DNA from: Azolla caroliniana
Taxonomy: Eukaryota; Plantae; Polypodiophyta
Assembly: GCA_043228905.1 (NCBI GenBank)
Contig: JBHGNT010000013.1
Span: forward strand, 18,228,001 to 18,292,000
Length of the DNA stretch: 64,000 nucleotides
Direction of reading: 5' to 3'
Shown here: piece by piece, positions 3,995-31,702 of the stretch
How the letters are laid out: every line of letters begins with the position of its first letter
Numbering within the stretch: position 1 is the first letter of the stretch
Notes under the pieces: model-generated
What the model saw: only the letters and a program-made list of their open reading frames with translations
Told to the model about the DNA's origin: nothing
The model's database searches: none
Made by a program: the position numbers and the translations under genes

Positions 3995-4030
<36 letters not shown>

Positions 4031-4115: not shown

Positions 4116-4127
4116 TGGTATCAGAGC
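4116..4127 (+). promoter_or_regulatory. Primer-binding site, tRNA-iMet
   Basis: TGGTATCAGAGC two bases after the LTR end. Confidence 0.95.
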
Positions 4128-8795: not shown

Positions 8796-9161
8796 ACTCG
8801 GACACAGAGCAGGATGGTTCCCGACAACCGACATCAGTTCCTTAATGATCGGCTTCAACTGTCCCGACCCGACCAGTTCGGTCTTCTGCCTTCGGACCCT
8901 GCCGACTCGAACAAAGCTGATATGTCCGAGAACCTAAGTCTATACCTGTAATCTTAGATAACCCATGTATACGCCCATTACGGGGGAGTGTCGAATACAT
9001 GTGTATAATGGACGTATTCATACTATCCCGTTTTTGGCCATTTATGTAATTAGCATAAAGGGTAGTTGCCCTAAGTCGGTCACTATATATAGTGACCTTG
9101 CAACCTTTTTGTAAGGTTGGTTGTTGTATTGTCTCTTTGTGAAATAAGAAGGTCTTTTGTG

Positions 9162-9192
<31 letters not shown>

Positions 9193-11039
9193 ACGACCTA
9201 CAATCTGTCATACGCAGGTATTCAGCAAGACTCGAATGCTCCTTGATCTTCCGCACTGACGACTCGTCTTCAACACATCCTCCCACTCTGTGGTGGCTAA
9301 CTCCGCTAACCTTCGCTTCGCGGATCGTGGCGGCGGCATGGGTTTCCTGGGCTGCGGTGCCGGCAGACCTCGGGGTGGAAATAATATCGTCAGATACTGT
9401 TGTATGATAGGCCTGAGCTTTTTGCTTCCTTGATACGCGTGCAGGCCTTCCCGTAATGCTGGCCCCGTAATGACCCCCCAATCGACCGTACACCCTTCAA
9501 AGGTATCAATGATGATACCTGCCTTCTGCTTGGGCATCACATATGCGTTTACGTGTACGCATCCGACCTCCAACAAGAATGTGGTGATTTCGTTGAAAAA
9601 GGGGTATGGGATCTCATTCGTTCTATATGCCTTGGCGGATGAAGAATATGGACCGAAATATCTCTACAAAGATTCCGCAGGAGGAATTTCGAAGTGCCTT
9701 TCACTCAGTGATGATAGGTCAAGCTTTTTTTGGATGGATGTGTTGGTGACCATGTCGATATTGACCTTCCTAGCGATGTCCAGGGCTTCAGGGTGGGGAG
9801 GTGCCTCGGCGACTCTGATGTATCCATCCAAGCGTTTCTCCACGAGTCATTGACGCAAGGCGGCAGAAATGGGTATCGGCATAGTCGGATTCAGCTCGTG
9901 GCTAATGGGTGAGGATTGCTGGCTATGGCGAACTTGGGCTCTGTAATAGGATGGAGAAGCAGGGGAGGAAGGGGAGCGATGAGAGCGATGAGAGTTAGAA
10001 GGTCGGTTTCTGTATTGTGCAGAAAACCTTCTATTTCCTTCTTTTTGTGCCCTAGGGTTCATTGGTCGGTGAGCTATCGTGGTGCCGCGTGTTCTTGGCC
10101 TAGAAGTTTGTGCATGTCGTAAGTCCTTTTAATAGCATCGCTATCTTCTTCTTCTTCTTCTTCTTCTTCTTCTTTTTTCGTAATGGTTACATACACTATT
10201 ATCTTTACACAATAGTACAAATGGGGCCCTATACTTAGTCCGCGGTGTCGTGAAGATTTCGGGCCACAGTGAGAAATCGGAGAATGTTGGAAGGATTGGC
10301 AAGGTGCACCATGTGCACCCACCCTTGTACAAAATTAGCATAGGGGCTAGGGGGGGTGCCTTTGTGGCGCCGGATAGGCAATAAAGTTGGGACAGAGGAT
10401 CCATGTAATAAGGGATTTATCCCACTTTGTAACGTTCCTCCCTCCCTGGGCTATAAAAGGAAGGGAGGGGTCTCTTGTAAAGGGTTGCCCATTTTGAGTT
10501 AGGAAGGGTATACCACTTAGGTCTAGGGTTTGGTAATTTTCTTGGTCTTCATCTTATTCTTAGGGTTTCTACTTTGGTCATTCTACCTATTTCGTTTAGG
10601 GTTTCATTTTGGGTTTTCTTCTTCTTTGTCTTATGGGGTTTGATTCCTGCTTCTTGAGTGGAGGTTTAGTACTTCGTCTCGTTCTTCATCTTATGAGAGA
10701 TCATGGGGGATTTAGGGTTTCGGGTTTCTTTATGTGATCTAGGTTTCATAAGCTTGGGGTTTTGGGTTTACCTTCTTCTTGGTCGAGTTAGTGTTTTGGT
10801 TTGGGGTTTCTACAACAACGGCTCTTCGGCATTCCGGTGGCGGCACTGGGAGGTTCGGTTTCCTATCCTCGATGGAGACCGTTTCGCATGGCGGCCGGTT
10901 CGAGAAGGGAGGGCGAAGTAGCACAGGAACTCTCTGTTGGGAGATAGGTCCCTCCGGATGGGAAGGGAGAAGAACAGTGCTGATGAGCAAACTCGGCCGA
11001 GACCGAAACCGGATGAGGAGTACCCGACTTCAGAGAGCT

Positions 11040-11064
11040 GGGTGAAAGCATGCGAGTGGAAACA
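11040..11064 (+). repeat. Left terminal inverted repeat
   Basis: gggtgaaagcatgcgagtggaaaca. Confidence 0.92.
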
Positions 11065-11392
11065 ATTAGCTATGTCCTTGACATAGGTAATTAGCTATGC
11101 AAAAAGCTACCATTGATAAATAGTCATTTTAGTAAAAAGCCATCATTAATAAATTAAGTATGCAAAAAACTACCATTGAAAATACTAGAGTGTTTTAATT
11201 ACATATGTAAATGAGTGCCATAAATGTGCAACATAAATTGATGTGTGCACCATAAATGTCTACCATAAATTATATATCGAATTCCTAGGTCCATTATGCA
11301 TGATCCTTTGCCACATCACGTAGGCCATCTCTAGTTGAGTATTGTGGGTTAGTTGCTACCACTGTTGCTAAACCCTATCGAGTCCACCTGCC

Positions 11393-12075
11393 GCCACTCT
11401 ACACTGAGGGGCCGCTACTGTGCGTTCCAAGCATCATCAAAGAGCTGCTCAATCTGACGGGGTTCTCTTCTCTGTGACACTCTACACTCAGGGGCCACTA
11501 CTGTGCATTCCAAGCATCATCAAAGAGCTGTTCAATCTGACGGGGTTCTCTTCTCTGTGCCACTCTACACTCAGGGGCCATTACTGTGCGTTCCAAGCAT
11601 CATCAAAGAGTTGTTCAATCTGACGGGGTTCTCTTCTCTGTGCCACTCTACACTCAGGGGCCGCTGCTGTGCGTTCCAAGCATCATCAAAGAGCTGTTCA
11701 ATCTGACGGGGTTCTCTTCTCTTTGCCACTCTACACTCAGGGACTGCTACTGTGCGTTCCAAGCATAATCAAAGAGCAATTCAATCTGACGGGGTTCTCT
11801 TCTCTTTTCCACTCTCACTCAGGGGCCGCTACTGTGCGTTTCAAGTATCATTGGTAACTGTTCAATCTGACGGGGTTCTCTTCTCTGTGCCACTCTACTC
11901 TCAGGTGCCTTCTATGTGCGTTCCAAGCATCATCGGTAACTATTCAATCTGACGGGGTTCTCTCCTCCATTGCCATCATTCTATACTCAGTTGCCGCTAC
12001 TGTCAAGTCCCAGATTGCTTCCACATTTCGATTTGACGGAGTTCACTCATCCAACGGCAACATTCTACACTCAGT
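11393..12075 (+). repeat. 83-bp tandem repeat, about 7-8 copies decaying 3', upstream of the transposase
   Basis: Unit ccactctacactcaggggccgctactgtgcgttccaagcatcatcaaagagctgttcaatctgacggggttctcttctctgtg. Spurious ORFs start every 83 nt (11420, 11503, 11586, 11669, 11752). Confidence 0.95.
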
Positions 12076-12298
12076 TGTTGCCATTGGTCGGTCTTGGATC
12101 GCCTCCTCAACTGTTGGATCCAACGGAGTGAAATCCTCTACTGTTCGGTCTTGGATTGCAATAACTTTTCTGTCTATTGATTATCTTGTGTATTGTTGTG
12201 TCTAATCTTGTGTATTGTGTGGAATATTTTTGTGTATTGTTGTTGTCCATAGCCATCTTTAATACTTGTTTTTTTTTCTGGAAATTTAGGGTTTTAAC

Positions 12299-15200
12299 AT
12301 GTCCAGCCAAATGGAAGGGGAAGAAGGGTGTTTAGAATTACCCCTCAATGATCATAAGGATAGGGATGATGTTATCAGGACACAACAAGCCATACGAAAC
12401 TATTGGGCAGAAAAAAGAAGGAAACATCGTCAATTGTTGAAGGATACGAAAGCCACACTCAGTAAAGGTAAGGATAGTTTAGCTGAGAATGTAAGTAATG
12501 CGACTACCATCATAGAGAGAAAAGTTGTAGACTATTTCAATGTTCAAACCAAGCACATCAACAATGAAGAAAAGAAGGTAGTACTTTATGGAATATGTAA
12601 TGATCCATCGATAAAGGACTTAGTTGATTGTGATGGTCTTAATGCAAACATATCATCTATTTTAGTAAATAATCTTCGTAATAGTTTCGTATCCATGAGC
12701 AGGTCAGAAGATGATCTTGTCTTAAAAAGGTCTAGTCTAATGATGTTACTTAATAGTGATGTTGACGATATAAACATCAGTGAGCTATCTAAGGTAATTG
12801 GTGTTAGTAGAAAAACAGTGTACAATACAATGAACCGTATAATTTCCTCGGGTGAAGGAACTAGTCTACTAAAGCTAACTACAAGATGTAAGCCAATGAC
12901 ACCCATAACATTTGAAATCAAGGATGTAATCACAATGTTTTGGACTAATGAGAGTAGGGTTTCACCCAATAAAAAGGATTTATGCAGGAAACGTGTTGGA
13001 AGAAATCAATACGAGGAGCATCCCATTCATCTTCTTGATGTACCTCAGGTATTTACATTTATCTCAACATTTGTTTTGACTCTACTCGGAAAGTTAATTA
13101 GCTCAGTTAGCAGAAAAGCTAATTAGCTTATCAGTTACATTTACCTCAGTTAGCTACTAGGATAGCTACTACATAGGTAACTGGCTACTCTCAATAGCTA
13201 CTACCATGATAGCTAATTAGCTATTCTCAATAGCTAATTTAGGTACTACCAGATAATTAGCTATACTGGTAGCTAGTTAGCTATCATGGTAGCTAGTTAG
13301 CTATTTCGTTATTACCAGCTAATTAGCTACTAGGAAAGCTAATTAGCTACCATGATAGCTAATTAGCTACCATGATAGCTAATTAGCTACTATGATAGCT
13401 ACTACATAGGTAACTGGCTACTCTCAATAGCTACTACCATGATAGCTAATTAGCTATTCTCAATAGCTAATTTAGGTACTACCAGATAATTAGTTGTACT
13501 GGTAGTTAGTTAGCTATCATGGTAGCTAGTTTGTTATTTCGTTATTACCAGCTAATTAGCTACTAGGAAAGCTAATTAGCTACCATGATAGCTAATTAGC
13601 TTACTAGGATAGCTTATTAGCCACCGTGATAGCTAATTTGCTACTAGACCAGCTAATTTGCTACCATGATAGCTAATTAGTTAGGACAGCTAATTAGCCA
13701 CCATCATAGCTAATTAGCTACTAGACCAGCTAATTAGCTATCATGATAGCTAATTAGCTACTAGACCAGCTAATTAGCTACCATGATAGCTAATTAGTTA
13801 CTAGGACAACTAATTAGCCACCATGATAGCTAATTAGCTACTAGACCCGCTAATTAGCTACCATGATAGCTAATTAGCTACTAGACCAGCTAATTAGCTA
13901 CCATGATAGCTAATTAGTTACTAGGAAAGCTAATTAGCCACCATGACAGCTAATTAGCTACTAGAATAGCTAATTAGTTACCATGATAGCTAATTAGCTA
14001 CTACTACAGCTAATTAGCTACCATGATAGCTAATTAGCTACTATGACATCTAATTAGCTACCATGATAGCTAATTAGCTACTAGGACAACTAATTAGCTA
14101 CTAGGATAGCTAATTAGCTACCATGATAGCTAATTAGCTACTAGGACAACTAATTAGCTACCATGATAGCTAATTAGCTACTAGAATAGCTAATTAGCTA
14201 CTAGAATAGCTAATTAGCTACTAGGATAGTTAGCTAGTTACGAGAATAACTAATTCCCCTTTATTACGCAGGTTGATTTATTTATTAGGTTCAAACGAAT
14301 GCATCCAACTATCAAAGTTCAACTACGAACATTCGAGTCTCTTAAGCCACACTTTGTGAGACGCTTAAAGGATCGATACACATGTTGTTGCATTTACCAT
14401 GTATAGATGGGTTTTCTGAAGGACTCTGTTAATCTACTACGTCACCATAGCGCATCCCTAACTAATACAGTTTGCACATGTGGGTGCCCAATCTGTCGAT
14501 CAAGCCCGCAAGAGGAGTGTAAATCATCTGAGCACGTTATCTTTTCCATGAGTTATTTATTAGATTCAATATTGTGTCCAAGAGAAACTGATGCTATCTT
14601 CCATATTCATAAATGTGTTATGGGTTTATGTCAAGATTGTGGCCCTACTAGATTTAGGTGGTGTCCAAATGAATTGAGTAGTGAAATATTGATCTCTGTG
14701 AAGTTATTTGAGTCAGTGAACACCAATTTCGAAGGAAAGGTGTGTAAAAGAAAGGATCTAGTTCGGGAGATGCTTAAACCAAGGGATTTGGTGTCTCTGT
14801 TTGTAGTATCTCTAGGAAAGTTCATTAAACACAACTTCATTTATTCATGGCAGGCCCATCAGTTTAAGACTTGCATATCTGATTTCCCAAATGATGTAGT
14901 AGTCTCAGTAGTAGATTTCGCAGAGAATTATACTTTCAAGCAACAGAATGAAATTCAATCTATGCATTGGTGTTCAGTTCAGGTAACCATTTTTGTGCAC
15001 ATAACATATTTTCGAGTTTCAGGTGATGCTAAAAAAGTAATTCATTTCTTTATTTCCGATGATAAGAAGCATGATAGCTTGTTCGTCCAACACTGTTTTA
15101 AGTTACATTGGCAGTGGTTATTAGCTCAACATTTGGAGCTTACTCAACATTGGGTCTGGTCTGACGGAGCTGCGTCACAATTCAAGGCTCGAAGTCCATT

Positions 15201-16099
15201 TTATTTTGTGGGGAGGTATCCTGCTATAACAGGTTTGGAGATGAGATGGATTTTTTTTGGGTCTGGCCATGGTAAAGGTGAACATGATGGTGCAGGGGTT
15301 GTTATAAAGCGGGCACTTACTCATGAACAACTAAAGACAGATGGTGTGCACATGAATTGTGCATCACATGTAGTTGAATTTTTAAGAACAAATATGTCAA
15401 CGAGTGCCACAGGTGTTTATTCCTCGCAAGTCCGAGATATCAAACGTGAATTTTGGGAAGTGAAGATAGATGACGTAAATAGGGAGAAGACCTGGGAGTG
15501 CCAAGGAATTCCCGAATTGCGATCTCTACATGCTGTTCGCGGTTATTCCAGGTTGGATGGTCATTGTATTGCGGTTAGAGAATTGACTTGTTTTTGCTTC
15601 CATTGTGTGTAGGGAAATTGGAGATATTGTCTAAACAAAGCATACATTCAGAATTGGGAGTATCACACTCTGAATGATAAGGAAGCAGTTGATGGAGAAA
15701 CAAGGCAAAATGCTGACTTCACATATGAGGGACTTGGAGATACTTTGAGTGATGTCCTGAACGTTGGGGATAACTTCGCTGTAAATGCTGAAGAAGGCAA
15801 TTCAGAGGGTGCTGATTTCTATATATTAAAGTGCACGGTTAGTAAACAGTGTGCAAGGCAGAATATTGTAGATGCATGGGGAAATTTTGTATCTGCCGGG
15901 ACATTCTACATATGCAAAACTAGATGACTACGAATATGTGTACAGGCTGTTAGAAGACAAACCAGCGGCGTATATGTACTCTCATTTGGTCAGGTGCATC
16001 AACATCCCAATGTCAGAGTACAATAGCTGCTCCGGTTTATACACTGTTGGTGCTAATGTGTATGAATGTATTTACAATAGTATGCCATGGAATTTGTAG
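12299..16099 (+). pseudogene. Sola2-like DDD transposase, 2 exons (12299-13048 and 14272-16099)
   Basis: GT at 13049 and AG at 14270-14271 join HLLDVPQ|VDLFIRFK...LKPHFV...CCCIYH in phase 0. Motifs VDFAENY, EIQSMHW, SDDKKHD, WSDGAASQFK, GHGKGEHDG. HTH-like ISELSKVIGVSRKTVY in exon 1. TAG stops at 14404 and 15610, frameshift near 15915. Confidence 0.85.
13115..14255. repeat. Intronic satellite of the palindrome TAGCTAATTAGCTA (~20-bp period)
   Basis: Dozens of gatagctaattagctaccat / ctactag units filling transposase intron 13049-14271, with a higher-order duplication (13161 vs 13394). Confidence 0.95.
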
Positions 16100-17503
16100 C
16101 TACAAGTAGCACTTACCATGTTCTCTTGTAAAACAAACATGTATTTCGCGAAAACAGTTAAATAAATTCGTTTGGAATCAATTTCTTGTATATAGTCTGC
16201 TTTCTGTGTTTCTTTCTCAATAAAATCATGTCTTTTTTGTTAAGTTTTAAGTTATAAGTTATAGCGAAATAGTCATCAGTAGCTAATTAGCTGTACAAAT
16301 GCAGCTAATTAGCTGTCAATAGCTAAATAGTCATCAATAGCATGAAATCAACAATCTGCAACATATTCCTCAAATTACACAGTAGATAAGTACAGTGGGA
16401 ACAAGTAATTAAATTCTTCATTGAATAATGCCATCTCTTTACATATTTATAAATTACCATTGGAAATGTCAACAAATCTCCTATAAACAGCTAAGCTCTT
16501 GCTAGTCAGTGGAACGAGTCTACATATATTATCCGCATATCAAGCTCGGTATGGAGTTCATAACCATGCACCTAGTTGGCAGCTCACTGTTTGCACCAGG
16601 TACTGTTCAGGCATTTCCTCGGGTAGAATGAGACAGCATCTCCGAATATTGAAGTAGTGCCGGAAATGTTCTGTATCCAAAATCAATGTATTGTTGGCAT
16701 TATATTCAGGCCAAGTAGCCCAAAAATCAGAAAGTCTCTTGAATCTTGCAGCTTCCATTTGCTCACAATTTTCTCGTTGTCGAGGTATTCCTCGCGGATG
16801 CATGGAATGAGGCGGGACCTCGGGGGTCTTGTACCAAAGAGCAAGAGAGAAAGGAGAAGGGAAGAGACCCGCTAGGTGCGAGCGTGGATCCACAGGGACA
16901 TGGCCCTTCGACACGAAGACGCGAGCGGGAAACCAACACAGAGAGACACGAAGGAATGTATGTATATATTAACAGAGACAAACAACAAAACACGGAAGCA
17001 ACAAAAACACGAAGTCGGTTACAACCGAACAGGCCGGCGAACAGATGCCGATGCCTGTTCGTAAACGCACAGAAAGACAGGAGCAGGTTGGAGGTGCTGC
17101 CGGAAGCACTCGGGCATTCCTCAGAGCAGCGCGAGCCTCCCGAAACCTGCACAGAAGGAAGCTATGGAGTTTGCGAACCAGAGAGAGAGAGAGAGAGAAG
17201 CCTTCGTACGCAACCGACAGCACTTCGTCCTCGACTCTCCGCGATCCCTCCTCTTTCGCGTCTCCCTCCTTTTATAGGCAGGGAAGGAGCCGTTTCCCCC
17301 CCCCCCTAACTTCCTACCCACCGAATCTACCTAGGATCTCCTATGTACAACTTAAGGCGCACGTGCATGAAGAGTCGGTTTCTACGCTCCGGTGCACGGA
17401 TTCCGCTCGTGGACGGTTTTCTTCACGACATCCGCCCCCACCTAACCGTGCATCCACCGGCATGCGCCAAATTGTGTTGGGACGGAGAAAACCGGTCCAG
17501 CCT

Positions 17504-20500
17504 TCATTCCCCGCCCGTCGGTTCTTCCTCGGTTTCGGATCGTTCGTCGTCCCGGTCCAGGCTAACCGGATCCGGCTCGTTGTCGTGACCCGCTTTGACC
17601 CGCTTCCCCGCTACCGGTATCGCCATTCGCGTACCGTCGAGTTCCGCCAGATGGTACGTCCCGTTGTCGTTGGCGCTTTGTACCACGTAAGGCCCGAACC
17701 ACCTTCTTGCGAATTTCCGTGTCGCTCGGTGCTGGTTGTTAAGGCTGCTGTCGTAGACTAGCACCCAGTCGCCTTCCTCGATCTTCTTCGGTCGGCGCCA
17801 GTGCGTTCGGTCGAACCGGGCTTTGTTCCTCATCCTTGCTTCCCAAAGCTTCTCCGCAGCCTGCTCCACGTCCTCCGGTCTTCGCTCGAGTTGTCGTATA
17901 CGCGCCGCCAGCAGTTCCTCCCTGCTCATCTCGTTTCTCCAGTCCACGGTTGCCCACGAGGAGATCGTACGTTCCATTGGCATGACCGGCTTCTGCCCAA
18001 ACATGAGTTCTGCCGGCATGAATCCGGTTACCGAACTATGCGTAGTTCGGTCCGCCCACAACGCGTAAGGCAATAGCCGCGGCCAGTTCCCGACTTGTCC
18101 TCCGCATGCCCGAACTAACGCCTTGACGATCGGTCTGTGTCCGCGCTCCACCTTCCCATTCGCCTCCGGATTGTACGCAGTGGTAAGCGAGAGCTCGACT
18201 CCTAGCCAGTCGAACAGCTCCTCGGCCTCTTCAGCGTCCAACTCACCGCGATCAACCACGATCTTCCCGACGCACCCGTACTGGCATATCACGTCCTCGA
18301 TCATGAACCGACATACGGCCGCGGTCGTTTTGTTCTGAAGGGCTCGGCCTTCCACCTGGTTCGTCAGATCTTCCCAAGCCAGGACCAGATACCGCATCTG
18401 TCCTACTCCCATCGGCATCGTCACCAGGTCTACCATCCATTTGAAGTGGATGGTCGGAGGGTACGTAGGGTGAAGCTCGTCCCGATGTCGAACTATGGAG
18501 TGCATCTGACAGCTCTCGCAAGTTGTCACGAATCGATGCACGTCCCGGTACAGTCCCGGCCACCAGTACTTCCCCTTTATCTTCTCGAACGTGGCCCACG
18601 TTCCACGGTGTTCAGCCCAAGGGCTGTCGTGGTAGGCCGTCAGCAGCTCCTCCTGTTCTTCCTTCATCGCCACCACCCGGAGCGGGACGCCGTTCCTCTT
18701 CTTCGGGTGCTTCCATAAGTATCTGTCCCGGAGAAAGAATCGATAAGCTTTCTTCTGGATCCGGTTGGCCTCGTCCTTCGTCCATGACGCATCCGGCGTC
18801 ATTGTCCTCAGAAACCTACCGATCTGGAGCCACTCGCCATCGTACTTGCTCTCGTCGAACCCGTTAAGTGCCGGAGTGCTCGTCCCATCGGTCGTCACGT
18901 ACGCCGCTTCGAAGAAGTCCACGCCGACTTCTTCGTCCTCCGAAACCATGCCGCCCTCGTCATCAAACCTCGCCCTTGAAAGCATGTCGGCCATGGCATT
19001 CTCCTTTCTGGAAATGTGCCGTATTTCCGGATCCAGGGACTTGATGTAAGCTATCCACCTGAGCATCGCCAGGTCCGGTGTCGCGCATCCGGAAACCATG
19101 CCGAGAATTGGCAGGCAATCCATCTCGACGATCACTTCCGTCCCGATCAGGTAGTCTTTGTCGGCCTTTACTGCCGAAACGATACCCCAGAGTTAGCGTT
19201 TAAACTGGGCGTACCCTCGCTGTCGCTCACTGAGGACCTTCGCGCCGAATCGGATCGGGAACCGAATGCCGTCCCCGTCTTCTTGGTTGACGACCCATCC
19301 GATCCCGGTCGGACTCGTATCCACCGTTATGTATACCGGGGTACCCTTCTCGTAGACAGCCTTCCGGAGCGCCGGTGCTGCCGCAAGAGCTTCCTTCAGC
19401 TTCCGGACCGACTGCGTGTGCTCGTCTCGCCACTCGAACTTTCGCCCTTTCTTCAGCAACCCGTATAGCGGCTCCGCAACGTGGGCGTAATGCGGGATCC
19501 ATATGTGGTAGAATGCGCATGCCCCGAGGAACCTCCGAACTTCCGTAACCGAGCTACAATCGGTCTTCATCACGGAGATGGCTTCTACCTTTGCCGGAGA
19601 CGGCTTCCGGCCATACGGTCCACATAGGTGCCCGACCACCAGGATTTTTGACTGCCCGAAGGCCGATTTCTCCCCGGAGAAAGTGAGCCTCGCATCCTCT
19701 AGCCTTTGTAGCACCTTCTCGCAGTCGCCGATGTGAGTTGCCACGAATCGCCGGCATCTGTCCGGCCCGACTGTCTCGTCCTTCTCTTCCACCGGGCACC
19801 CTTTGATAGGGATGTCGTCTAGAAACGGCATGGTGATGTCCGGGATGCAATCCCTCAGTACCTTGTTCATTGCATTCACCATGTGGGCCACCGAGTTGGT
19901 CCCTCCTTGCGGCAGGGTACACATTCGCACTAGGCCGAGGGGGGTTCGCATCGTCGTAATGTCTCTGCTCTCCACGGCTAGCTGGAACTGGTCGTACCCC
20001 GAGTACAGATCACCGACCGAGTAAATCGACCTTCCGGCGAAGGCCTCTGCGAACTCGTCTATGGTCGGTCCGATTCCTGCGTTCCGAATGGTCACTCTGT
20101 TGACCGACAGCAGGTCCTGAATGAAGCGCAATGTTCCGTTTTTCTTTGGTACGGTAAACCATCGATTCGAGTATGGCGCACTCGACGGTTCGAGAATACC
20201 CATATCGACTTTCTGCCTCAGTAGCCCCATCAACTCCGGGATGTGAGCTCTTGGTACCGGAATCAGCTTGAGATTCCACGGCACATGCGGTACTGTGAAT
20301 ATCACCATCGGCTCCACGATCGTCGGGTCTACGCACCCGATTTCTTCCGGCGAGAATGCGAAGGCTTTCCCGTGCCTTCCGAGCATTTTCCGAAACCGGT
20401 CTTCCTCCACAGGCAGTAGGAACCCGCCCCCACCGATCCTAAGCTCCCGGAGCGTCCCGTCGGTGAAGGTGTGTCCTATGCAGGTCGGGTCTCGTAAACA

Positions 20501-23114
20501 GGGGTCCGACGCCACCCCTCTGATTCGGGACTCGCTGCCCTCCGGCAAGGGTGCCACGACTGGCCTTACCTTCCGGTCCACAGTCTTGTACTTCGTGCTA
20601 ACTCGGGCCGTCCGATCTGACCCGAGCCCCTGACTGAAGTTCGCGATGACTTCGTACATCTCTTCGGAACATACCGGTATCGTCCGGTCTTCGTTAAGGT
20701 CTTCTCCGGCTACCTTCCTCAGCATTCCCAAGGTGTCGTCGAAGGAGACCGCCTCCACGGCTCCGCTGATTTCCTCGTCCGGGCCGAGAACTCCGCACGC
20801 TCGAAGTCGCACTTTCGCCCTTGTCTTTTCTCGGCCGACGATGCCGACTATCATACACCCTCCCTTGTTGGAGAAGCAAAATTTCCTACCTATCGTACAG
20901 TCGTGGGGTCTTTCCCGAGTGTCCAGACTGTCTCGGCCCCACGCCTTGGCAGCCCTCTCTAAAAATCCTCCCGGTTCTCGCCACCGAGGGATTCGCGGTT
21001 CCTCTCGTGGTTCGGTCTCACGGTCAGAAATTGGACCGAATGGCGCCCGTCCTGGCTTTTGACCCTTGCGTAGGCCGAACTGTTGTCTAGCACCTTGGTC
21101 TCCATTCGAGCCGCTGTGATGTATGGTTCCCCTAATATGACCGGGTGCGAGGACGTCTCCTGTACGAAGAACTGCTAGTCAATCTCGACGTCGCCGATCT
21201 TGACTCGCACGTTCAGGCAGGCCCCATGCAGTTCCTCGGTGGCGCGCGTCGCGCCGCCCATATCTTCCACCCGTGCTTGGTGTTGATCGGCCACTTCCCC
21301 TTCTTATAGAAGTCCATGGACATCAGGTTTATTTCCGAACCGTGGTCCACCAGTGCCACCACCGGTTCCTGAACCTCTCCGATCTTTACCGGGGTCTCTG
21401 TGGTCGCTCGGGCCCAGTGTGGCCTCGAATAGTGGCTCTCCGCCCACTCATCTGCCAACGCCGAGTCGTCGATGTGCGTCGTCCGCACCTCTACCGGTCT
21501 TTCCGGATCCGTCTCCGTCGACAGCCTCTTCCGTTTCACCAAGTCTACAATGGAGTCGTGGAACTCCTTCTTGGCGATCCCTAACACCTCTCGCAATGTC
21601 AGCTCCACTTTGCTGTCGAGGATCCGTTCTTCTACGACCTTTCGTAGGTCCGTAGTCCTTTCTATCTCCGTCCCCAGTCGGTATCCGCCCTTCCTGGGGT
21701 TATCTTGCGAGCTGGACCCGCCGGCATCGTTCCGTCGTTGCCCGAATCGGGTCTCGTATCGTTGTGAGGGCCTGGCCGCTCCGGCTTTCCCCACTCGCTT
21801 GTCTTCTACCAGAGCCTCGTAGTTCTGGCAGGCGGCTTCTAGGAAGCCTGTCTTCTCCTCGACCGGATCGCTCCACCCCGTTATTTCCCGGACCCGTTTC
21901 TAAGCACGGTCCGATTCATCCTTCTTCAACTGTGCGCCGGCAAGACCTTCCAGCATTGCCGACCAGAATCCGTCTTTGCCCTCCTTTCGGGCCTCGCTGC
22001 CCCCGACCCGAATGCCGGCCGACGCCGAGTAGTGGATGGCCTCCTCGTGTCGGGCCGCTGCCTCTTCCATCAGTCTCTTCATACCTCCTCGTCCGTCGTT
22101 TCGGTTTAGGGTCCTTCTGGTGTCGCCGGCGTGCACCCGGCCTTCCCACAGGTACACCACCCGGTTCCTCAATGCTTCTGCGAAATCGCCGCAGTCCTTC
22201 CGGATGTGGCCGACCTCGTCGCACCACATGCACCTGTTCCCTACTGCCGGCCGTCGGTCACGAGCCGGTTCACCGCCTTCCCTTCGAGTCTGGGCGATCT
22301 GGAGATCCTTTATCGCCCGCGTCAACTCCTCCAGCGTTGCTCCTCCGGACGAGCCATTGACCATGCCGGTCGAAGCCGGACCGGTTTTGAGCCATTCCCG
22401 GGTCTCTTCCCTTCGCACTTGCGGTGCCGGTTCAAGCCTCCTTGTTGTGACAGAGCCCGCACCTGCCGCCCCGTTGGCAGCCAATTCTCGCCGTTTATCG
22501 AAACGGCCACAGACTCTCTTAACCGCAGCCCAGTCGGCTGTCAGCCCGTCCTCGGTCTCCAGCAGGGAGCCGACTTGGTCCCGGTCCCGCTCATCCATCG
22601 ACTTGACGAACAGTAGGACCCGGCTCGTATCCGGAACGGTTCGGTCAAGCGCCGAAAGGCGCGCAAAGCGTTCTTCGAACTCCAGGAGGAGTGCCGTCGC
22701 GTTTCCTCCCTTGCCGGGGGACTCCACCCATTCCATGAAGTCCCGTTTCGAACGCCGGAGCGCGTCGTCCAACCCGTATTTTTCTAGGAGTCGGCCTTCG
22801 AACTCCTCCCAGGTACGGCTCTCCGCCCGTACCTCGAGCACCTCCGCATGGATGCTCGGCATCGCCACTCGAGGAAACCCGGCAAGACGCCTCTCTTCCG
22901 GAATGTCCCGCATCAGCATTTCTGCCCCGTAGGACGCCAAATACTTCGTGGCATCCTTTCCGCTGAACCGGCCGATCGTACCGACGACCGCCTCAATGGC
23001 TCTGTCGAGGGCGCCGGAGCCCTCGCGTGCGCTCAGTATCCGATCCACGGCCGAAGCCATGGCCTCTGCAAGATCCGACCCTTTCATCTTCTGCTCTTCT
23101 GCCGCCTCCTTCAC
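17504..23114 (-). pseudogene. gag-pol of the inner Gypsy copy, with stops and frameshifts
   Basis: ORFs 21900-23114 (gag, CMWCDEVGHIRKDC), 21213-21794 (protease), 19193-20854 (RT/RH), 17504-19135 (integrase with GPY motif, no chromodomain). Confidence 0.93.
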
Positions 23115-23127
23115 GTCGGGTTCACCA
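23110..23127 (-). promoter_or_regulatory. Primer-binding site, tRNA-Trp (second copy at 24961-24978)
   Basis: Plus strand ttcacgtcgggttcacca matches the 3' end of plant tRNA-Trp including CCA, three bases from the LTR. Confidence 0.85.
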
Positions 23128-23756
23128 AGATGTCGAGGTTTTCCTCGCGGATACGTGGAATGAGGCGGGACCTCAGGGGTCCTGTACCAAAGAGCAAGAA
23201 AGAAAGGAGAAGATGCCCACTGCGTGCGAGAGTAGATTCACAGGGACACGGCCCTTCGACGCAAGGACGCGAGTGGGATAGCGACACAGGAAGACACAAA
23301 CGTATGTATGTATTAACAAACAACAAACAACACAACACAGAGTCGGATACAACCGAACAGGTCGGCGAACAGATGCCGATACCTGTTCGTAAACGCACAG
23401 AAAGGCAAGAGCAGGCTGGAGGTGCTGCCGGAAGCACTTAGGCATTCCTCAGAGCAGCGCGAGCCTCCCGAAACCTGCACAGAAGGAAGCTATGGAGTTT
23501 GCGAACCAGAGAGAGAGAGAGAGAGAAGCCTTCGCATGCAACCGACATCACTTCGTCCTCGACTCTCCGCGATCCCTCCTCTTTCGCGTCTCCCTCCTTT
23601 TATAGGCAGGGAAGGAGCCGTTTCCCCCCCCCTAACTTCCTACCCACCGAATCTACGTAGGATCTCCTATGTACAACTTAAGGCGCACGTGCATGAAGAG
23701 TCGGTTTCTACGCTCCGGTGCACGGATTCCGCTCGTGGACGGTTTTCTTCACGACA

Positions 23757-24981
23757 GCGGTCCGTTTCATCTTTCCTCAGTCGTGCGCCGGCGAGGCCTT
23801 CCAGCATTGCTGACCAGAAACCGTCTTTGCTCTCCTTTCGGGCCTCGCTGGCCCCGACCCGAATACCGGCCGACGCCGAGTAGTGGATGGCCTCCTCGTG
23901 TCGGGCCGCTGCCTCTTCCATCAGTCTCTTCATACCTCCTCGCCCGTTGTTTCGGTTCAGGGCCCTCCTGGTGTCGCCGGCGTGCACCCGACCTTCCCAC
24001 AGGTACACCACCCGGTTCCTCAACGCTTCTGCGAAATCGCCGCAGTCCTTCCGGATGTGGCCGACCTCGTCGCACCACATGCACCTGTTCCCTGCTACCG
24101 GCCGTCGGTCACGAGGGGGTTCGCCGCCTTCCCTTCGAGTCTGGACGATCTGGAGATCCTTTATCGCCCGCGTCAACTCCTCCAGCGTTGCCCCTCCGGA
24201 TGAGCCATTGACCATGCTGGTCGAAGCCGGACCGGTTTCGAGCCATTCCCGGGTTTCTTCCCTTCGCACTTGCGGTGCCGGTTCAAGCCTCCTTGCTGTG
24301 ACAGAGCCCGCACCGGCCGCCCCGTTATCAGCCCATTCTCGCCGTTTGTCGAAACGGCCACAGACTCTCTTAACCGCAGCCCAGTCGGTCGTCAGCCCGT
24401 CTTCGGTTTCCAGCAAGGAGCCGACTTGATCCCGGTCCCGCTCGTCCACCTACTTGACGAACAGTAGGACCCGGCTCGTATCCAGAATGGTTCGGTCAAG
24501 CGCCGAAAGGCGCGCAAAACGTTCTTCAAACTCCAGGAGGAGTGCCGACGCGTTTCTTCCCTTGCCGGGGGACTCCACCCATTCCATGAAGTCCCGTTTC
24601 GAACGCCGGAGCGCGTCGTCCAACCCGTATTTTTCTAGGAGTCGGCCTTCGAACTCCTCCCAGGTACGGCTCTCCGCCCGTACCTCGAGCACCTCCGCAT
24701 GGATGCTCGGCATCGCCACTCGAGGGAACCCGGCAAGACGCCTCTCTTCCGGAATGTCTCGCATCAGCATTTCTGCCCCGTAGGACGCCAAATACTTCGT
24801 GGCATCCTTTCCGTTGAACCGGCCGATCGTACCGACGACCGCCTCAATGGCTCTGTCGAGGGCGTCGGAGCCCTCGCGTGCGCTCAATATCTGATCCACG
24901 GCCGAAGCCATGGCCTCCGCAAGATCCGATCCTTTCATCTTCTGCTCTTCTGCCGCCTCTTTCACGTCGGGTTCACCAAGA
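23757..24981 (-). pseudogene. Truncated second gag copy between LTRs
   Basis: Closely similar to 21905-23130, cut at ...KDETDR by the middle LTR, TAG stop at 24450. Confidence 0.9.
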
Positions 24982-27069
24982 TGTCGAGGTATTCCTCGCG
25001 GATGCGTGGAATGAGGCGGGACCTCGGGGGTCTTGTACCAAAGAGCAAGAGAGAAAGGAGAAGGGAAGAGACCCGCTAGGTGCGAGCATGGATCCACAGG
25101 GACACGGCCCTTCGACACGAAGACGCGAGGGGGAAACCAACACAGAGAGACACGAAGGAATGTATGTATATATTAATAGAGACAAACAACAAAACACGGA
25201 AGCAACAAAAACACGAAGTCGGTTACAACCGAACAGGCCGACGAACAGATGCCGATGCCTGTTCGTAAACGCACAGAAAGACAGGAGTAGGTTGGAGGTG
25301 CTGCCGGAAGAACTCGGGCATTCCTCAGAGCAGTGCGAGCCTCCCGAAACCTGCACAGAAGGAAGCTATGGAGTTTGCGAACCAGAGAGAGAGAGAGAGA
25401 AGCCTTCGCACACAAACCGACAGCACTTTGTCCTCGACTCTCCGCGATCCCCTCCCCTTCTCGTCTCCCTCCTTTTATAGGCAAGGAAGGAGCCGTTTCC
25501 CCTCTACTTCCTACCCACTAAATCTACCTGCCTAGGATCTTCTATGGACAACATTCGAGAAGAGCCGGTTCCTACGCTCCTGTGCACCGATTCCGCTTGT
25601 GGACGGTTTTCTTCACGACATCGTGCCCATTGACCTTTAAAACGACTTCGCCATTTTGGGAAGAATCTTGCCAAACACTTCCACACATTTGATTTTGGTT
25701 TTTCACTCCAAATAAACAAATCAAAGTATTCCACAGCCCACTCTAGAAACTGATTCGCATCCCTCCTTGGCTGCATATATCTCACACTCATCAAGACTTT
25801 ATCAAGCTCCAAGATCAAGGCTCTTCTTTCGACTTCTAGTGGTTTAGGTTTCCATTCCTGAAACTGAGCCGTTGTTACACCATTTTCTGGTAGGATACGA
25901 TCAATCTCAATCAGCTCAGGTTCGGCCGACACAACTGGCGTCCTTTTCCTCTTTAAACCCCTAGTCGACTGTGTTGGGCCTGGCTTCACATTCTGGTGCT
26001 CTTGTTTTGTCGACTTAGTTATCAATCCTTGGATTACCTCGGTGCATGTAGCTATTGATCTGCTCGATATCAGTCCACTGGTATCACATGCTGCATCTAC
26101 CTGCAACACCAAGTCATCCGTGCTACATGCTTGATCAACTTGTGTGACCAGATCACTTGTGTCAGTTGCTACATCTACTTTCAAGATGGGGCCCTTTAAA
26201 CATGCCGCAACATCAACAGTATCCACACTGCCATTGGCCTTACGAGCAATAGAATCAAACCCTTTAGACTCTGCAACATCAGAAAACACCAACATATTCA
26301 CACTCACAAAGTAACTAATAGTCTCACAAAACAATATCCTGAACATCAAAGAGTTTCAGTCATAGAACAACACTCTTCAAATTATCTTGGAAAAACATCA
26401 TAGAGTTCCATTACATAATGTGGATCAAGCAACAACCAATTTGAGGTTTTACTTGTCCAACAGGATAGTAAAACTTCATAAAACCCTAGCAAAATCCCTA
26501 AGCTAACAATCATATCCAACTAAACAGTATTTCGCTCCACTACTTCTGGGCCCCTTGACCGAGTAACTGGTCTTGTTCACGATCGTGGCCCCTTCTTCAG
26601 CCTTTTTCTGGTTGGTTCCCCATTTAGGCTTGCTTCTTTCACCCAATGCGCAAGTGTGTCCTCCTCCGACAACCTTCCCATCGCCTCAACAGCTAATTGC
26701 ACATCAGCCGTTTCTTGAACTAGCTTTTCAAGTACAGAGGGATCTGTTTGGACATTTTCAGTAGTTGGGCTCGGTGGGGTGGAATCAAGGTCTTGAGACT
26801 CGAAGAAATGTTGCATCAAGTGTTCATAAACACTGTTATTGTGAACCTCAGTTTTACATGTTGTTTCCACTATTTCATGGCATTTCACATCGTTGCCTAA
26901 TTCAGTACACTGTTCCAAAAGAATAGGGTGGAGCTGATCTGAAGGAGATGTGATAGCAGGACTCTTACTTTCAGCCACGTTGGCAGTAGTATCCTCATCT
27001 GTTGCAGCGTCATCAGCACCAGACACATCATGTGCCGTCCTTAATCCACAAGTTTCTACAATAACATGA

Positions 27070-28125
27070 CAGCTATTTAGGATAGCTAATTAGCTACTTT
27101 ACTAAACTATGGTAGAAGCTAGGATAGCTAATTAGCTAGTACGATAGCTAATTAGCTAGTATGATAGCTAATTAGGATAGCTAATTAGCTAGTATGATAG
27201 CTAATTAGGTACTTTACTCAACTATGGTAGTAGTTAGGATAGCTAATTAGCTACTATGGTAGCTAATTAGCTACTTTACTCAACTATAGTAGTAGCTAGG
27301 ATAGCTAATTTAGCTACTTTACTCAACTATGGTAGTAGCTAGGATAGCTAATTAGCTACTTTACTAACTATGGTAGTAGCTAGGATAGCTAATTAGCTAC
27401 TTTACTAACTATGGTAGTAGCTAGCATAGCTAATTAGCTAGTAGGATAGCTAATTAGCTACAATGAAAGCTAATTAGCTACTTTCTCAACTATGTAGTAG
27501 CTAGGATAGCTTATTAGCTACTAGGATAGCTAATTAGCTGCCAGTAGCTAATTAGCTACTAGGATAGCTAATTAACTGCCAGTAGCTAATTAGCTACTAG
27601 GATAGCTTATTAGCTACTTTACACAACTATGGCAGTAGCTAATTAGCTACTATGATAGCTAATTAGCTACTATGATAGCTAATTAGCTAGTAGGATAGCT
27701 AATTAGTTGCCAGTAGCTAATTAGCTACTAGGATAGCTAATTCGCTAGTAGGATAGCTAATTAGTTGCCAATAGCTAATTAGCTACTAGGATAGCTAATT
27801 CGCTAGTAGGATAGCTAATTAGTTGCCAGTAGCTAATTAGCTACTAGGATAGCTAATTAGCTTTTTTACACAACTATGGTACAAGCTAATTAGCTTGTAC
27901 CATAGCTAATTAGCTACTAGGATAGCTAATTAGCTGCTAGTAGCTAATTAGCTACTAGGATAGCTTATTAGCTACTTTACACAACTATGGCAGTAGCTAA
28001 TTAGTTGCCAGTGGCTAATTAGCTAGTAGGATAGCTAATTAGCTTTTTTACACAACTATGGTACTAGCTAATTAGCTAGTACCATAGCTAATTAGCTACT
28101 AGGATAGCTAATTAGAAAAGACTAA
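27070..28125. repeat. Second intronic TAGCTAATTAGCTA satellite
   Basis: Fills intron 27056-28150 of the accessory gene. Splicing joins KLT-E-TCGLRTAHDVSGADD in frame. Confidence 0.95.
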
Positions 28126-29499
28126 GCTTATTAGCTACAGTATGGTATACCTGTTAGTTTTCTCCACTCATTTGGTAGAGCTGTACTGCAATCTCCCAAA
28201 CAGAATGCAGCAATTCGACAGGCATGTTGAAAACAAAGCAGATGGTATGTGTGGTTGCATGGTTGTAGGTGAACCAACAAAGACGCAGTTTTCTCCTCCA
28301 CACCTAACCCGCAAACGATGCAACGTGCTTGAACTGTCAATAAATCATTTTCTGGTTCTACTTCATTTGGTAAGGGAGCAAGAATGTTGAGGTCCAAATC
28401 CCGTCTGGTCCTTACCATTCCCTCCACAAAATGTAGCTGCTTCTTAAGGCAGCTAACTACCTATTCTTGATGAATGTATTGTTCCTTCAACGCAATAGAG
28501 AAATTTACCGATTAATTATTCTTGTTGTTGAAAGATACACCAACTTTGCTCAGGAATCGTTAACTTACTTGAAGCTTATCCAAATTGTAGTCTGCAACAG
28601 TATTCACACCTAGAAGGTCCAGGTTCATTGAAAGAACCTGGATCTCTATTTGCAGTTCTATTTTACGCTGGGGATCCAGTGGCCCCTCTAATTCAAGCTT
28701 CTGTTGCGCAACCTATTCCAGATAATGCTTGATTAGCACATTTTACCCGTTATTTATAACACAATCACATACCAACAAAACAATAGTTACCTGAATCTTA
28801 TTTCTAATTGTTGTAACAACGGAAGTAACTTTGCTCTCCATTGCAGAAGCCATTGTGGCTTTCTCTAAATCAGTCTTAAAAAATGCCAATGTCTCACAGG
28901 CTTCATGGACATTTTTTAGCATATAGCTAACCAATGTCTCACCTGTATCATCGACATTGGCTTTCTTTGGGTGTCGGTGTGGTGTATGCCCCCGGTCTTG
29001 CTGGGAGTCGGCAGTTGCATCAACAGCTGCCATGCTCCAAAATCTGTCTCTTTTTTGTGCCAAGGTCCCCATCTTTCGACATCTTTTTACCGATGCCTCA
29101 CCATAGACTGCCCAAGCTACCCTATACATTTCAGGGTCTCTGGATTCCTTCGTTGTTTTGCAGTACTCATATGCAAATGCTCTAGCAAATGATTGGGATC
29201 TCCTGATGAACTTTCTGGTGCAGTCTCATGCAGTCATCGTACAAGTCGGCTCGTACATGCTTCAACTTGACCTTGCCTTTGAGTCTAGGCACTGTATATA
29301 CTGTCATCCAGTCTACATCACTGATCAATTTATCACTTAGGACAACAGGGTCAACACCCTCGAGTGACAGACCATAGGTGTTGTGGAAGTCCTCCTTTGT
29401 CTCGCAAAATTTTGCGAAGTTTAGCACTCTCGTATACGGAGGAACGAGCCATCTGAAATATCATTTCAGAAATCAGAAATAGTGCAAAATCAGAATATG

Positions 29500-30032
29500 T
29501 GAGAATCAGAAACCCCAATCAACAACAACAAAAATGGTGCAAAATCTTTAACTTAGCAAATCAGAAACCCTAATCATAATTTGTATTCAGAAATTTGAAA
29601 TAAAAAACCCTAATCAAAATCTGTAATCAAAAGTTTGAAATCAGAAACCCCAATCAAAATCTGTAATCAGAAGTTTGTAGCTAGAAACCTTATTCAGAAA
29701 TTCTAATCAGAAATTTATAATCAAAAACCCTAATCAGAAATTTTAATCAGAAACCCTAATCAGAAATTTCAATCACAAACCCTAATCAGAAATCCTAAGC
29801 AGAAATTTATAAACAAAAACCCTATTAAGAAATTCTAATTTGTAATCAAATTTTGTACCCAGAAACCCTATTCAGAAATTCTAATCAGAAATTTATAATC
29901 AAAAACCCTAATCAGAAATTTCAATCAGAAACCCTAATAAGAAATTTCAATCACAAACCCTAATCAAAAATTCTAATCAAAAATTTATAAACAAAAACCC
30001 TAATCAGAAATTTCAATCAGAAACCCCAATCA
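29500..30032. repeat. Telobox-like AAACCCTAATCAGAAATT repeat array in intron 1 of the accessory gene
   Basis: About a dozen aaaccctaa(t)-like motifs alternating with cagaaatt spacers, inside intron 29453-30077. Confidence 0.85.
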
Positions 30033-30560
30033 TCACTAAAGACAGGATTAAACACAAAAAAAGTAATATAAACACACCTGTTGCTACTCCCCGATTTGCG
30101 AGACATCCTTGTATGGGACTCCAAGGACTCCGCCCTATTCGATTTTGGGGAAATATGAATCGGCACCAAAGTTCAGATAGTAGTCAAAAAGAAAAAACAA
30201 ATGTTTGGGGTTTCTATAACTGAAACATACCTGGACGATGATCGAGCGGGTTCTGTGTTGTAGCTCTCAATCTGCAATGTCGATTTTTTGTTGTTGCGGG
30301 AGCTACGTCTGCGTTCGTGCTCTGAGTACTCCATCTGCGTTCAAAATCAGACTTAGGCTAAACAGGAAATTGATGGCATTGAAGTCGACCTTAGATGATG
30401 GTGATATTCCCCAAGTTCCACTACGTCTGAAACAGAAGTTCAAATATTTGAGTTTTTTCATAAATTAGTTTTTCAAATATTTGATTTTCCCACAAAAAAG
30501 ACTAGCTAAACAAATAGCTAATTAGCTATGGCCATTTTAGTAGCTAATTAGCTATAATAG

Positions 30561-30585
30561 TGTTTCCACTCGCATGCTTTTACCC
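30561..30585 (-). repeat. Right terminal inverted repeat
   Basis: tgtttccactcgcatgcttttaccc. Confidence 0.92.
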
Positions 30586-30589
30586 AGCT

Positions 30590-30845
30590 GGATGGTGCAG
30601 ACCCGATGAGAACCGGATGAGGAGTACCCGGCTACGGAGAGCCGGATGGTGCAGACCCAGTGAGAACCGAATGAGGAGTACCCGGCTAAGGAGAGCTGGA
30701 TGGTGCAGACCCGGTGAGAACCGGATGAAGAGTACCCGGGTACGGAGAGCCGGATGGTGCAGACCCAGTGAGAACCGGATGAGGAGTACCCGGCTACAGA
30801 GAGCCGGATGGTGAAGACCCGGTGAGGAGTGCTCACCGGATGAAG
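30590..30845 (+). repeat. 54-bp tandem repeat in the U3 of the Copia solo LTR
   Basis: ggatggtgcagacccagtgagaaccggatgaggagtacccggctacggagagcc, 4-5 copies, with one more partial unit left of the Sola2 insertion. Confidence 0.9.
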
Positions 30846-31702
30846 AGACATATTCATAAATATGTTTTTTGAGAGTCCATCGTGGCTATATTTGTAAATA
30901 GCCGAAAAGTCATATTAGTATAAATATGACTTAGGGCAAACTTTTAGTAGAAGTAGTTGGCATTCTTGTTTGCGCGAGATTAGAGCGCGTAACAGTGTAC
31001 AGAGAGAGAGAGAGAGAGGAAGAGGTCGCTGCCTCTGTTGTAACCGTCGCCTGTGGCGAAGATCGTGAGCGCGAGGTCGTTGCCTCTGTGAGCTCACTGT
31101 TGTAATTATTGTGACATAGTGATAGTTAGCAGTCAGTGGACTACCGTGGTTTTTCCCTCTCAGGGTTTTCCACGTTAAACATCCTGTGTACTCTTCTCTC
31201 CCTTGTGTCGTGCTTTCATTTCCCGTTTTTTGTGTATGATTCTAAGCTCGGTTGTGGCCGAGCATTGCGTATACGGAGCGTGCAGTTCCTGTCACTCTCC
31301 ATCGTCTTCGGGGCGTGACCAACGATGGACGACGCGGTTCCGGTGGCCCACTTGACTCGCCTTCACCGGTCCCCCATTCTCATCTTGATGTATTAGCCTA
31401 TGGATATGTAATAGCCACCGGAATCGGGGCATGTAAACCGTCTTGTTGTAAAACTCTTGTAATATATATTCATGTTGGTGTATATCTACCTTCCTTGTAA
31501 CATATTTGAGTGGGGTCCATAGTCGCGGTGAACCGTTTGTGAAACCCTACATTCGTTGGAGCTGGAAGCCGATTTCGGACCGAAGCCCACAAAGCTTAAG
31601 GACTCCACCATCCGTCTCCCTAGTCCAAGACCCCCGCGGTCCCACCTAAGATCCTACACGTACTCGCGGAATATTGCGACAACGGATTCTCCAGCTTTGT
31701 CC

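What the first reader, a model, noticed from the sequence alone, without database searches (positions are those of the whole stretch)
11040..30585. Large two-gene Sola2-type DNA transposon in a land-plant genome
Seen: 25-bp TIRs starting GGG, a 4-bp AGCT duplication, and a spliced DDD transposase (DFAENY / SDG / GHGKGxxDG). Known: GRG termini, 4-bp TSDs and these motifs define Sola2, described mainly from animals and protists as single-gene elements, whereas the reported plant Sola is the moss Sola1. Inference: this is a ~10.7-kb plant Sola2 lineage with a convergent two-gene layout that I do not recognise as described. It sits inside a solo LTR, so it was mobile after that Copia inserted.
Basis: partly seen in the sequence, partly recalled or inferred. 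Interest (0 to 1): 0.85.

Follow-up and report, generated by a model that had tools for sequence, protein, structure and literature searches.

The report
Two-gene plant Sola2 jumping gene
This is a broken copy of a many-copy cut-and-paste jumping gene (Sola2 type) of a land plant, with a second, facing gene also found beside related moss-type transposases; its protein likely binds the element's own repeated palindrome and would help it stay active, which is untested.

Summary
The element spans 11040-30585, with 25-bp TIRs (1 mismatch) and an AGCT duplication, inside an 810-bp Copia-type solo LTR. It is 10,699 bp once a nested Gypsy is removed. The spliced DDD transposase matches the published Sola2 alignment motif by motif and not Sola1's first-Asp region. 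This copy is dead (2 stops, a 14-bp loss), but sequencing runs show a high-copy family without these lesions. The facing gene is not a one-off capture. Its FCP1/NIF-like domain recurs facing 2 transposases of 45-49% identity, and its unnamed N-terminal domain recurs downstream and facing in 8 of 20 long related loci. A 14-bp palindrome occurs 40 times, only in the element's non-coding DNA, and relatives carry their own motifs, as in VANDAL/VANC. Binding is untested, and the transposase is a rival binder. Novelty is smaller than claimed: Sola2 is reported in cypress and Ectocarpus, Sola in ferns, and 12-13-kb Sola2 elements with a second gene (Fanzor1) are published. This scan already noted the same kind of element on another piece of this genome and in a moss. 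Verdict: new variant of a known kind.

The parts
10935..11039 (+). 5' part of host Copia-type solo LTR (TG start; CTCTC duplication just outside; ends in the AGCT target copy)
   Evidence: 39 contigs with loose letters before 10935 in run X2
11040..11064 (+). left TIR, 25 bp, starts GGG
11065..11105 (.). left subterminal copies of the palindrome core (AATTAGCTA twice)
11393..12003 (+). 83-bp tandem array, 7.3 copies, upstream of the transposase; lacks the palindrome
12299..13048 (+). transposase exon 1 (250 codons; weak HTH match, below Pfam cut-off)
13049..14271 (+). transposase intron, phase 0, 20-bp-period array with 16 exact TAGCTAATTAGCTA; same position in L002
14272..16099 (+). transposase exon 2 with Cys/His motifs and the D465-D548-D589 triad; stops at 14404 and 15610 and a 14-bp loss near 15910 in this copy
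16100..16557 (.). intergenic stretch between the facing genes; one near-exact palindrome
16558..16777 (-). gene 2, C-terminal half of the FCP1/NIF-like domain and stop
16778..25620 (-). nested Gypsy retrotransposon with three LTR copies and a 4-bp TCGT duplication; splits the NIF exon in frame; not part of the family
25621..26270 (-). gene 2 last exon, 5' part: low-complexity linker and N-terminal half of the NIF-like domain (ELDKV in place of DxDxT); acceptor tentative
26525..27055 (-). gene 2 exon 5, acidic region ending in a basic cluster; in-frame stop at 26577; donor unresolved
27056..28150 (-). gene 2 intron with 22 exact TAGCTAATTAGCTA
28151..28484 (-). gene 2 exon 4, RING-like Cys/His cluster (zf-RING_2 E 0.008, below cut-off); one internal stop
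28569..28712 (-). gene 2 exon 3, helical or coiled-coil segment
28791..29452 (-). gene 2 exon 2: unnamed ~110-aa N-terminal domain, linker, helical segment; frameshift near 29190 in this copy, open in homologue P0269 (91%)
29453..30230 (-). gene 2 intron 1 with a 13-bp-period array holding 11 AAACCCTA
30231..30334 (-). gene 2 predicted exon 1 (ATG at 30334), in phase with exon 2
30481..30560 (.). right subterminal region with 2 exact palindromes
30561..30585 (-). right TIR; other insertions end at 30585
30586..31294 (+). AGCT target copy and 3' part of the host solo LTR (CA end, CTCTC duplication)

Best explanation
This is a dead copy of a high-copy, 10.7-kb Sola2 cut-and-paste transposon of a land plant, whose family carries a facing second gene that likely encodes a family-specific helper protein, predicted to bind the palindrome arrays in the element's own introns and ends and so to keep the element transcribed or unsilenced. 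Shown: TIRs, a 4-bp duplication, the spliced DDD transposase, many other insertions, the second gene in other families, and motif arrays confined to non-coding DNA. Inferred from general DDE/D transposase biology: the transposase pairs the TIRs, cuts and inserts with a 4-bp stagger. Inferred and untested: the conserved N-terminal domain reads the motif, while the RING-like and likely catalytically dead NIF-like parts recruit host proteins. History of this copy: a Copia left a solo LTR, the Sola2 element inserted into it, then a Gypsy inserted into gene 2 and C-to-T-type stops accumulated. Confidence is about 0.9 for the identity and layout, and about 0.45 for the helper binding the arrays.
For: Sola2 motifs match PMC3627910 Additional file 10. 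DF.ENY, SDG..QFK and HGK..DG columns are invariant or nearly so in 50 relatives. The transposase has dN/dS 0.22 against L001. Family contigs have depth 3650-4554 against 17-44 for the other listed pieces in run X6, for both transposase and intergenic pieces, and the NIF-coding bins are covered in 4 of 4 runs (rough, not a copy number). Gene 2 exon 2 has 16 homologues at 64-91% best local identity, with the N-domain better kept than the linker (97/118 vs 20/33 for P0271; 104/118 vs 14/26 for P0276). NIF scores above the Pfam cut-off in facing ORFs of L004 (55.3 bits) and L006 (27.1). The N-domain is found in 8 of 20 non-redundant loci with 5 kb or more downstream, always downstream on the opposite strand, with no decoy at E<0.01. 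The profile match to the window family scores 29.95 (E 1.1e-4) against at most 12.4 in 20 column shuffles. The palindrome has 40 exact copies, all in element non-coding DNA, and 0 in the rest of the 64 kb. Relatives carry different motifs in introns and flanks. VANC21 binds motifs arrayed in VANDAL introns (PMC5735166 passages).
Against: There are no binding, methylation or expression data. The N-domain link between the window family and the moss-type loci is modest: probability 57%, and not significant by blastp, single-family HMM or profile against one sequence. 12 of 20 long loci show no N-domain. TIRs could not be found around related loci (14 hits vs 13 in the control), so their facing gene is not shown to lie inside an element. 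L002 (60% transposase identity) has a facing acidic ORF but no NIF hit in 2.4 kb. Long loci with the N-domain mostly lack clear motif arrays (top 10-mer 5-7 copies in L019, L023, L024, L031 and L053). The motif also abuts both TIRs, which suits a transposase site.
Confidence: 0.5

Rival explanations
1. The transposase itself binds the palindrome (subterminal sites for end pairing, intronic arrays for self-regulation), and gene 2 is a cofactor that acts through protein contacts rather than DNA.
For: The motif lies directly inside both TIRs. Exon 1 has a weak HTH match. A preprint abstract reports that transposases alone activate cognate copies (10.64898/2026.08.24.746577, abstract only). Gene 2's recognisable parts (RING-like, NIF-like, helical) are interaction-type domains.
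Against: 38 of 40 exact copies are deep inside introns, 22 of them in gene 2's intron, the arrangement described for VANC targets.
Confidence: 0.3
2. Gene 2 is an old passenger or a separate neighbouring element with no role in transposition, and the arrays are slippage products with no binder.
For: No TIRs were shown in related loci. Gene 2's C-terminal content varies, with NIF in only 2 of 58 locus clusters, most of them too short to tell. Tandem arrays can arise neutrally.
Against: The same position and orientation in 8 of 8 N-domain loci and 2 of 2 NIF loci. Open frames and domain-biased conservation across subfamilies. The same motif appears in four separate non-coding parts and never in exons.
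Confidence: 0.12
3. The transposase belongs to another group (Sola1, Sola3, Zator or an unnamed sister group), not Sola2.
For: No Repbase reference could be placed in a tree or scored by HMM. Pfam has no hit for the catalytic ORF.
Against: It matches the published Sola2 alignment from the zinc-binding motifs to the third Asp. The Sola1 profile reads DLqkvlslP at the first Asp. The duplication is 4 bp.
Confidence: 0.05

Closest known systems
Sola2 group of the Sola superfamily (alignment in PMC3627910 Additional file 10, part 1 of 2 read; founding paper Bao et al. 2009 not held, recalled)
   Same: DDD transposase motifs (CxCxxH, DF[AS]ENY..Q.EIQS.HW, SD..HD, SDG..Q[YF]K, HGK..[CH]DG.G...KR), short TIRs, 4-bp duplication
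   Different: Streptophyte branch with a conserved intron, a facing RING/NIF-like partner gene and family-specific palindrome arrays
Fanzor1-carrying Sola2 elements DFa-1/2/3 and PPa-1/4/5 (PMC3627910; passages and supplement rows seen)
   Same: Sola2 transposase plus a second gene, about 12-13 kb, 4-bp duplication
   Different: The second gene there is TnpB-like Fanzor1; gene 2 here has no such match
Sola1-1_Ec32 of Ectocarpus (PMC12477816; passages seen)
   Same: Large Sola element with an accessory gene on the opposite strand, proposed to bind its own element
   Different: Sola1 transposase and ParB-like/amino-methyltransferase cargo; neither is seen here
VANDAL MULEs with VANC anti-silencing proteins (PMC5735166; passages seen)
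   Same: Accessory gene plus family-specific short motif in tandem arrays in introns and upstream DNA
   Different: MULE host, no detected sequence likeness of gene 2 to any Pfam family at its N-terminus, and a palindromic motif; binding and demethylation untested here
Plant Sola records: Sola2 in Cupressus sempervirens (10.64898/2026.07.23.736688, section 7 read); SOLA in Azolla and Salvinia (PMC6786969, passage) and Ceratopteris (PMC6890710, table passage)
   Same: Sola or Sola2 abundant in non-flowering plants
   Different: Counts only in the text seen; no element structure or second gene described there (supplements not seen)

Membership tests
Sola2 | DDD transposase with Sola2 motif series | tested here: met
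   Compared by eye with the published alignment; conserved columns in 50 relatives; D465, D548, D589
Sola2 | First-Asp region unlike Sola1 | tested here: met
   Sola1 profile positions 5-30 read avvsfdlqkvlslPr..., against VVSVVDFAENYTF here; Sola3 profile not read
Sola2 | 4-bp target-site duplication | tested here: met
   AGCT for this copy; other insertions end at 30585/30586, so AGCT is outside the TIR. Other copies' duplications were not seen.
Sola2 | Short TIRs, GRG start (GRG recalled, from no call) | tested here: met
   25 bp starting GGG; the rule is not strict, since Sola2-N1_PPa begins GTT
Sola2 | Tree position or best HMM score among Repbase Sola1/2/3 references | not testable with these tools
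   References could be read but not loaded; the tree of 92 cores has only plant and algal names
VANDAL/VANC system | Family-specific motif in tandem arrays in non-coding parts | tested here: met
VANDAL/VANC system | MULE transposase as host | tested here: not met
   Sola2 motifs; no MULE Pfam hit
VANDAL/VANC system | Accessory protein homologous to VANC | tested here: inconclusive
   No Pfam family for the N-domain; no VANC sequence compared directly
VANDAL/VANC system | Sequence-specific binding and loss of methylation | not testable with these tools
   Needs experiment
Fanzor1-carrying Sola2 | Second gene is TnpB-like | tested here: not met
   Gene 2 pieces give only RING-like and NIF-like matches
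FCP1/NIF phosphatases | PF03031 domain | tested here: met
   Above cut-off in L004 and L006; window half-domain 15.8 bits, below cut-off, but aligns to both
FCP1/NIF phosphatases | Catalytic DxDx(T/V) motif (recalled) | tested here: not met
   ELDKV in the window, DLNGL and DLNGV in L004 and L006; whether the window's E is private was not tested

The most novel reading that the evidence does not exclude
Land-plant Sola2 elements have carried, since before mosses and vascular plants split, a partner gene whose unnamed N-terminal domain is a new kind of DNA-binding module that co-evolves with family-specific intron palindromes. This would be a self-addressed anti-silencing system, independent of VANC, that gained RING and pseudo-phosphatase effector parts in this branch.
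Probability: 0.3. Interest if true: 0.7.

Novelty: new variant of a known kind. Interest (0 to 1): 0.45.

Why it matters
Sequence-specific counter-silencing by DNA transposons is shown mainly for Arabidopsis VANDAL and Spm elements. A high-copy Sola2 family with a short, defined palindrome and a candidate reader would give a direct test of whether this strategy arose again in seed-free plants with large genomes. It would also give a structure for a group that plant genome papers only count. If gene 2 is only a cofactor or passenger, the value is a better annotation of plant Sola2.

Tried and rejected
No whole genome is held, so full-length copies could not be tabulated. Bao et al. 2009 was not held. 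A search for longer, spliced gene 2 proteins found none among 290 candidates (weak evidence). No RNA holder was listed among 22 runs, which says nothing on expression. The first TIR scan of related loci failed its positive control. The second passed it but gave 14 hits vs 13 in the control. The TIR motif and transposase gave nothing in viral or prokaryote collections. The first NIF seed was in the wrong frame and was redone. The N-domain model from the window family was poor (pLDDT 41). The L014-led model was fair (pLDDT 76, pTM 0.71) but had no match in PDB or viral libraries (best Foldseek E 3.5 and 2.6; best VIA Z 3.8). Atlas leads were weak and inconsistent: Transposase_32 at 0.86, SWIM and RteC at 0.91 with low shared features. 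A PMD-like identity was considered and got no Pfam support. PDB sequence searches were empty. Outgroup clades of the tree could not be named: 0 of 10 had organism names. The L001-L003 dN/dS is unreliable (probable frameshift) and NIF dS was saturated. Literature searches showed no paper describing this layout; most subscription papers, Repbase Reports and preprint supplements are outside the library.

Full report
Observation. The element runs from 11040 to 30585. Its ends are 25-bp inverted repeats with one mismatch, starting GGG, with AGCT on both sides. AGCT is its own reverse complement, so I tested the boundary with contigs from other insertions. Of 32 listed pieces laid on 30330-30680, 10 stop at 30585 (9 with 14 to 2061 unlike letters beyond) and 4 stop at 30586. 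None with the TIR continues into this flank. These pieces differ by 5-12 letters in about 90, so they are diverged or derivative copies, and some are the same site seen in two runs. AGCT is therefore a 4-bp target duplication. Other copies' duplications were not seen. The flanks join into an 810-bp TG...CA solo LTR with a CTCTC duplication, 75% identical to LTRs that follow a purine tract in Copia-type elements of the window. A Gypsy (RVT_1, RNase H, integrase) at 16778-25620 has a TCGT duplication and splits gene 2 in frame. Without it the element is 10,699 bp.

Transposase. Exon 1 (12299-13048) and exon 2 (14272-16099) are separated by a 1223-bp phase-0 intron. The acidic triad is D465, D548 and D589. 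Pfam gives nothing for the catalytic ORF. The published Sola2 alignment (PMC3627910 Additional file 10, part 1 of 2) matches by eye from the pre-intron segment through CxCxxH, DF[AS]ENY..Q.EIQS.HW, SD..HD and SDG..Q[YF]K to HGK..DG.G...KR. The Sola1 profile differs at the first Asp (PMC5751038 supplement, one part read). A tree or HMM test with references was not possible. This copy has two stops and a 14-bp loss. In 4 of 4 runs nearly all depth reads C at both stops, and the 14 bp are seen in contigs of 2 runs and in loose ends of 2 runs. L001 encodes an open exon 2, with dN/dS 0.22 against this copy. Family contigs in run X6 have depth 3650-4554 against 17-44 for the other listed pieces, which fits a hundred or more copies as a rough guide only. 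The family is held by runs with four organism codes, and X15 (organism C) covers the right end.

Relatives. One search gave 164 proteins. Named ones come from Ceratodon, Calypogeia, Cryptomeria, Taxus and Klebsormidium nitens, and P0075 is from a K. subtile transcript assembly. In a FastTree of 92 catalytic cores, the window lies in an unnamed clade of 20 (support 0.98), sister to a clade of 34 holding Ceratodon. Calypogeia, Klebsormidium and the conifers branch below (midpoint root, outgroups unnamed). The host is a land plant, probably seed-free; I did not determine it.

Second gene. On the minus strand, five exons splice in frame at GT-AG sites from ATG 30334, apart from one frameshift near 29190 and internal stops. 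The exon 5-6 junction is unresolved. The order is: unnamed N-domain, helical segment, RING-like cluster, acidic region, NIF-like domain. It is a family feature. The NIF-coding end is covered in all four runs at depths like the transposase's, and exon 2 has 16 homologues at 64-91%, with P0269 open across the frameshift. It is also older than the family. L004 and L006 (49% and 45% transposase identity) have facing ORFs with NIF above the Pfam cut-off. A profile seeded with the facing ORF of L014 found its N-domain in 8 of 20 non-redundant loci with 5 kb or more downstream. All were downstream and on the opposite strand, with no decoy at E<0.01; L023 and L031 entered weakly. That profile matches the window family's N-domain at 57% probability (E 1.1e-4, score 29.95), against at most 12.4 in 20 shuffles and 29.5 without L014. 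Pairwise tests were not significant. Against this, 12 of the 20 loci lack the domain, no TIRs were found around related loci, and L002 has no NIF in 2.4 kb. The NIF motif lacks DxDx(T/V) in all three sequences, so it is likely a pseudo-phosphatase (inference).

Motif arrays. TAGCTAATTAGCTA occurs 40 times exactly: 16 in the transposase intron, 22 in a gene 2 intron and 2 beside the right TIR. It never occurs in exons, the Gypsy or the rest of the window. With one mismatch it also appears beside the left TIR and between the genes. Relatives have other motifs in non-coding DNA: L002 has 20 of 20 in the same intron, L006 9 of 9 and L014 6 of 6 in the intron, and L007 10 in the intron and 8 downstream. 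These motifs were picked as each locus's commonest word, so their location is the test, not their count. Older long loci show no clear arrays.

Mechanism. Cut-and-paste by the DDD transposase with a 4-bp stagger follows from the family. For gene 2, I favour a family-specific helper that binds the arrays and keeps the element active (about 0.45), because VANC targets are likewise motifs arrayed in introns (PMC5735166 passages). I noted this idea before reading the earlier scan notes, which repeat it and add no independent support. The main rival is that the transposase binds the motif, which abuts both TIRs (preprint abstract), and gene 2 is a cofactor (0.3). A passenger is less likely (0.12).

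Known versus new. Sola2 is reported as the most abundant class II group in cypress (section read) and in Ectocarpus. SOLA is listed for three ferns and as rare among recently active plant elements (PMC12973397 passages). A review gives 4-bp duplications and sizes up to over 15 kb (PMC10741241 passage). Two-gene Sola2 (Fanzor1) and an opposite-strand accessory gene in Sola1 are published. I found no description of this RING/NIF partner, its N-domain or the arrays in eight searches; Repbase and unseen supplements may hold one. Verdict: a real Sola2 member and a new variant of a known kind, interest 0.45.

Noticed in passing
window 29565-29995: 11 copies of AAACCCTA (plant telo-box, name recalled) in gene 2's first intron, of 15 plus-strand copies in the window; a possible host-factor site.
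   Followed up: no
window 11393-12003: 83-bp tandem array (7.3 copies) upstream of the transposase, unrelated to the palindrome.
   Followed up: no
window 16778-25620: The nested Gypsy has three LTR copies because about 1.85 kb is duplicated in tandem; outer LTRs differ at 29 of 630 aligned bases; duplication is 4 bp.
   Followed up: partly
window 53151-60038: Three tandem ORFs for a P-loop GTPase-like protein (MMR_HSR1 above cut-off in the two scanned), two of them 96% identical.
   Followed up: no
window 3825-9254 and 37779-43327: Two copies of one Copia family, 92% identical; the second keeps a 1284-aa open frame.
   Followed up: no
P0212: A 1203-aa relative of the transposase carries an OTU protease domain above the Pfam cut-off.
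   Followed up: no
L053:21380-21535 and L073:11000-11164: A second transposase exon 1 lies about 10 kb downstream of the first, suggesting clustered or tandem elements.
   Followed up: no
window 26580-26660; L002:7110-7200; L004:4148-4300: The acidic exon of the facing gene ends in a similar short acidic-then-basic stretch in three families (by eye); possibly a nuclear-localisation or docking motif.
   Followed up: no
window 30498-30585: Summed contig depth rises several-fold over the terminal 85 bp, and diverged pieces align only there, a hint of non-autonomous derivatives sharing the ends.
   Followed up: partly
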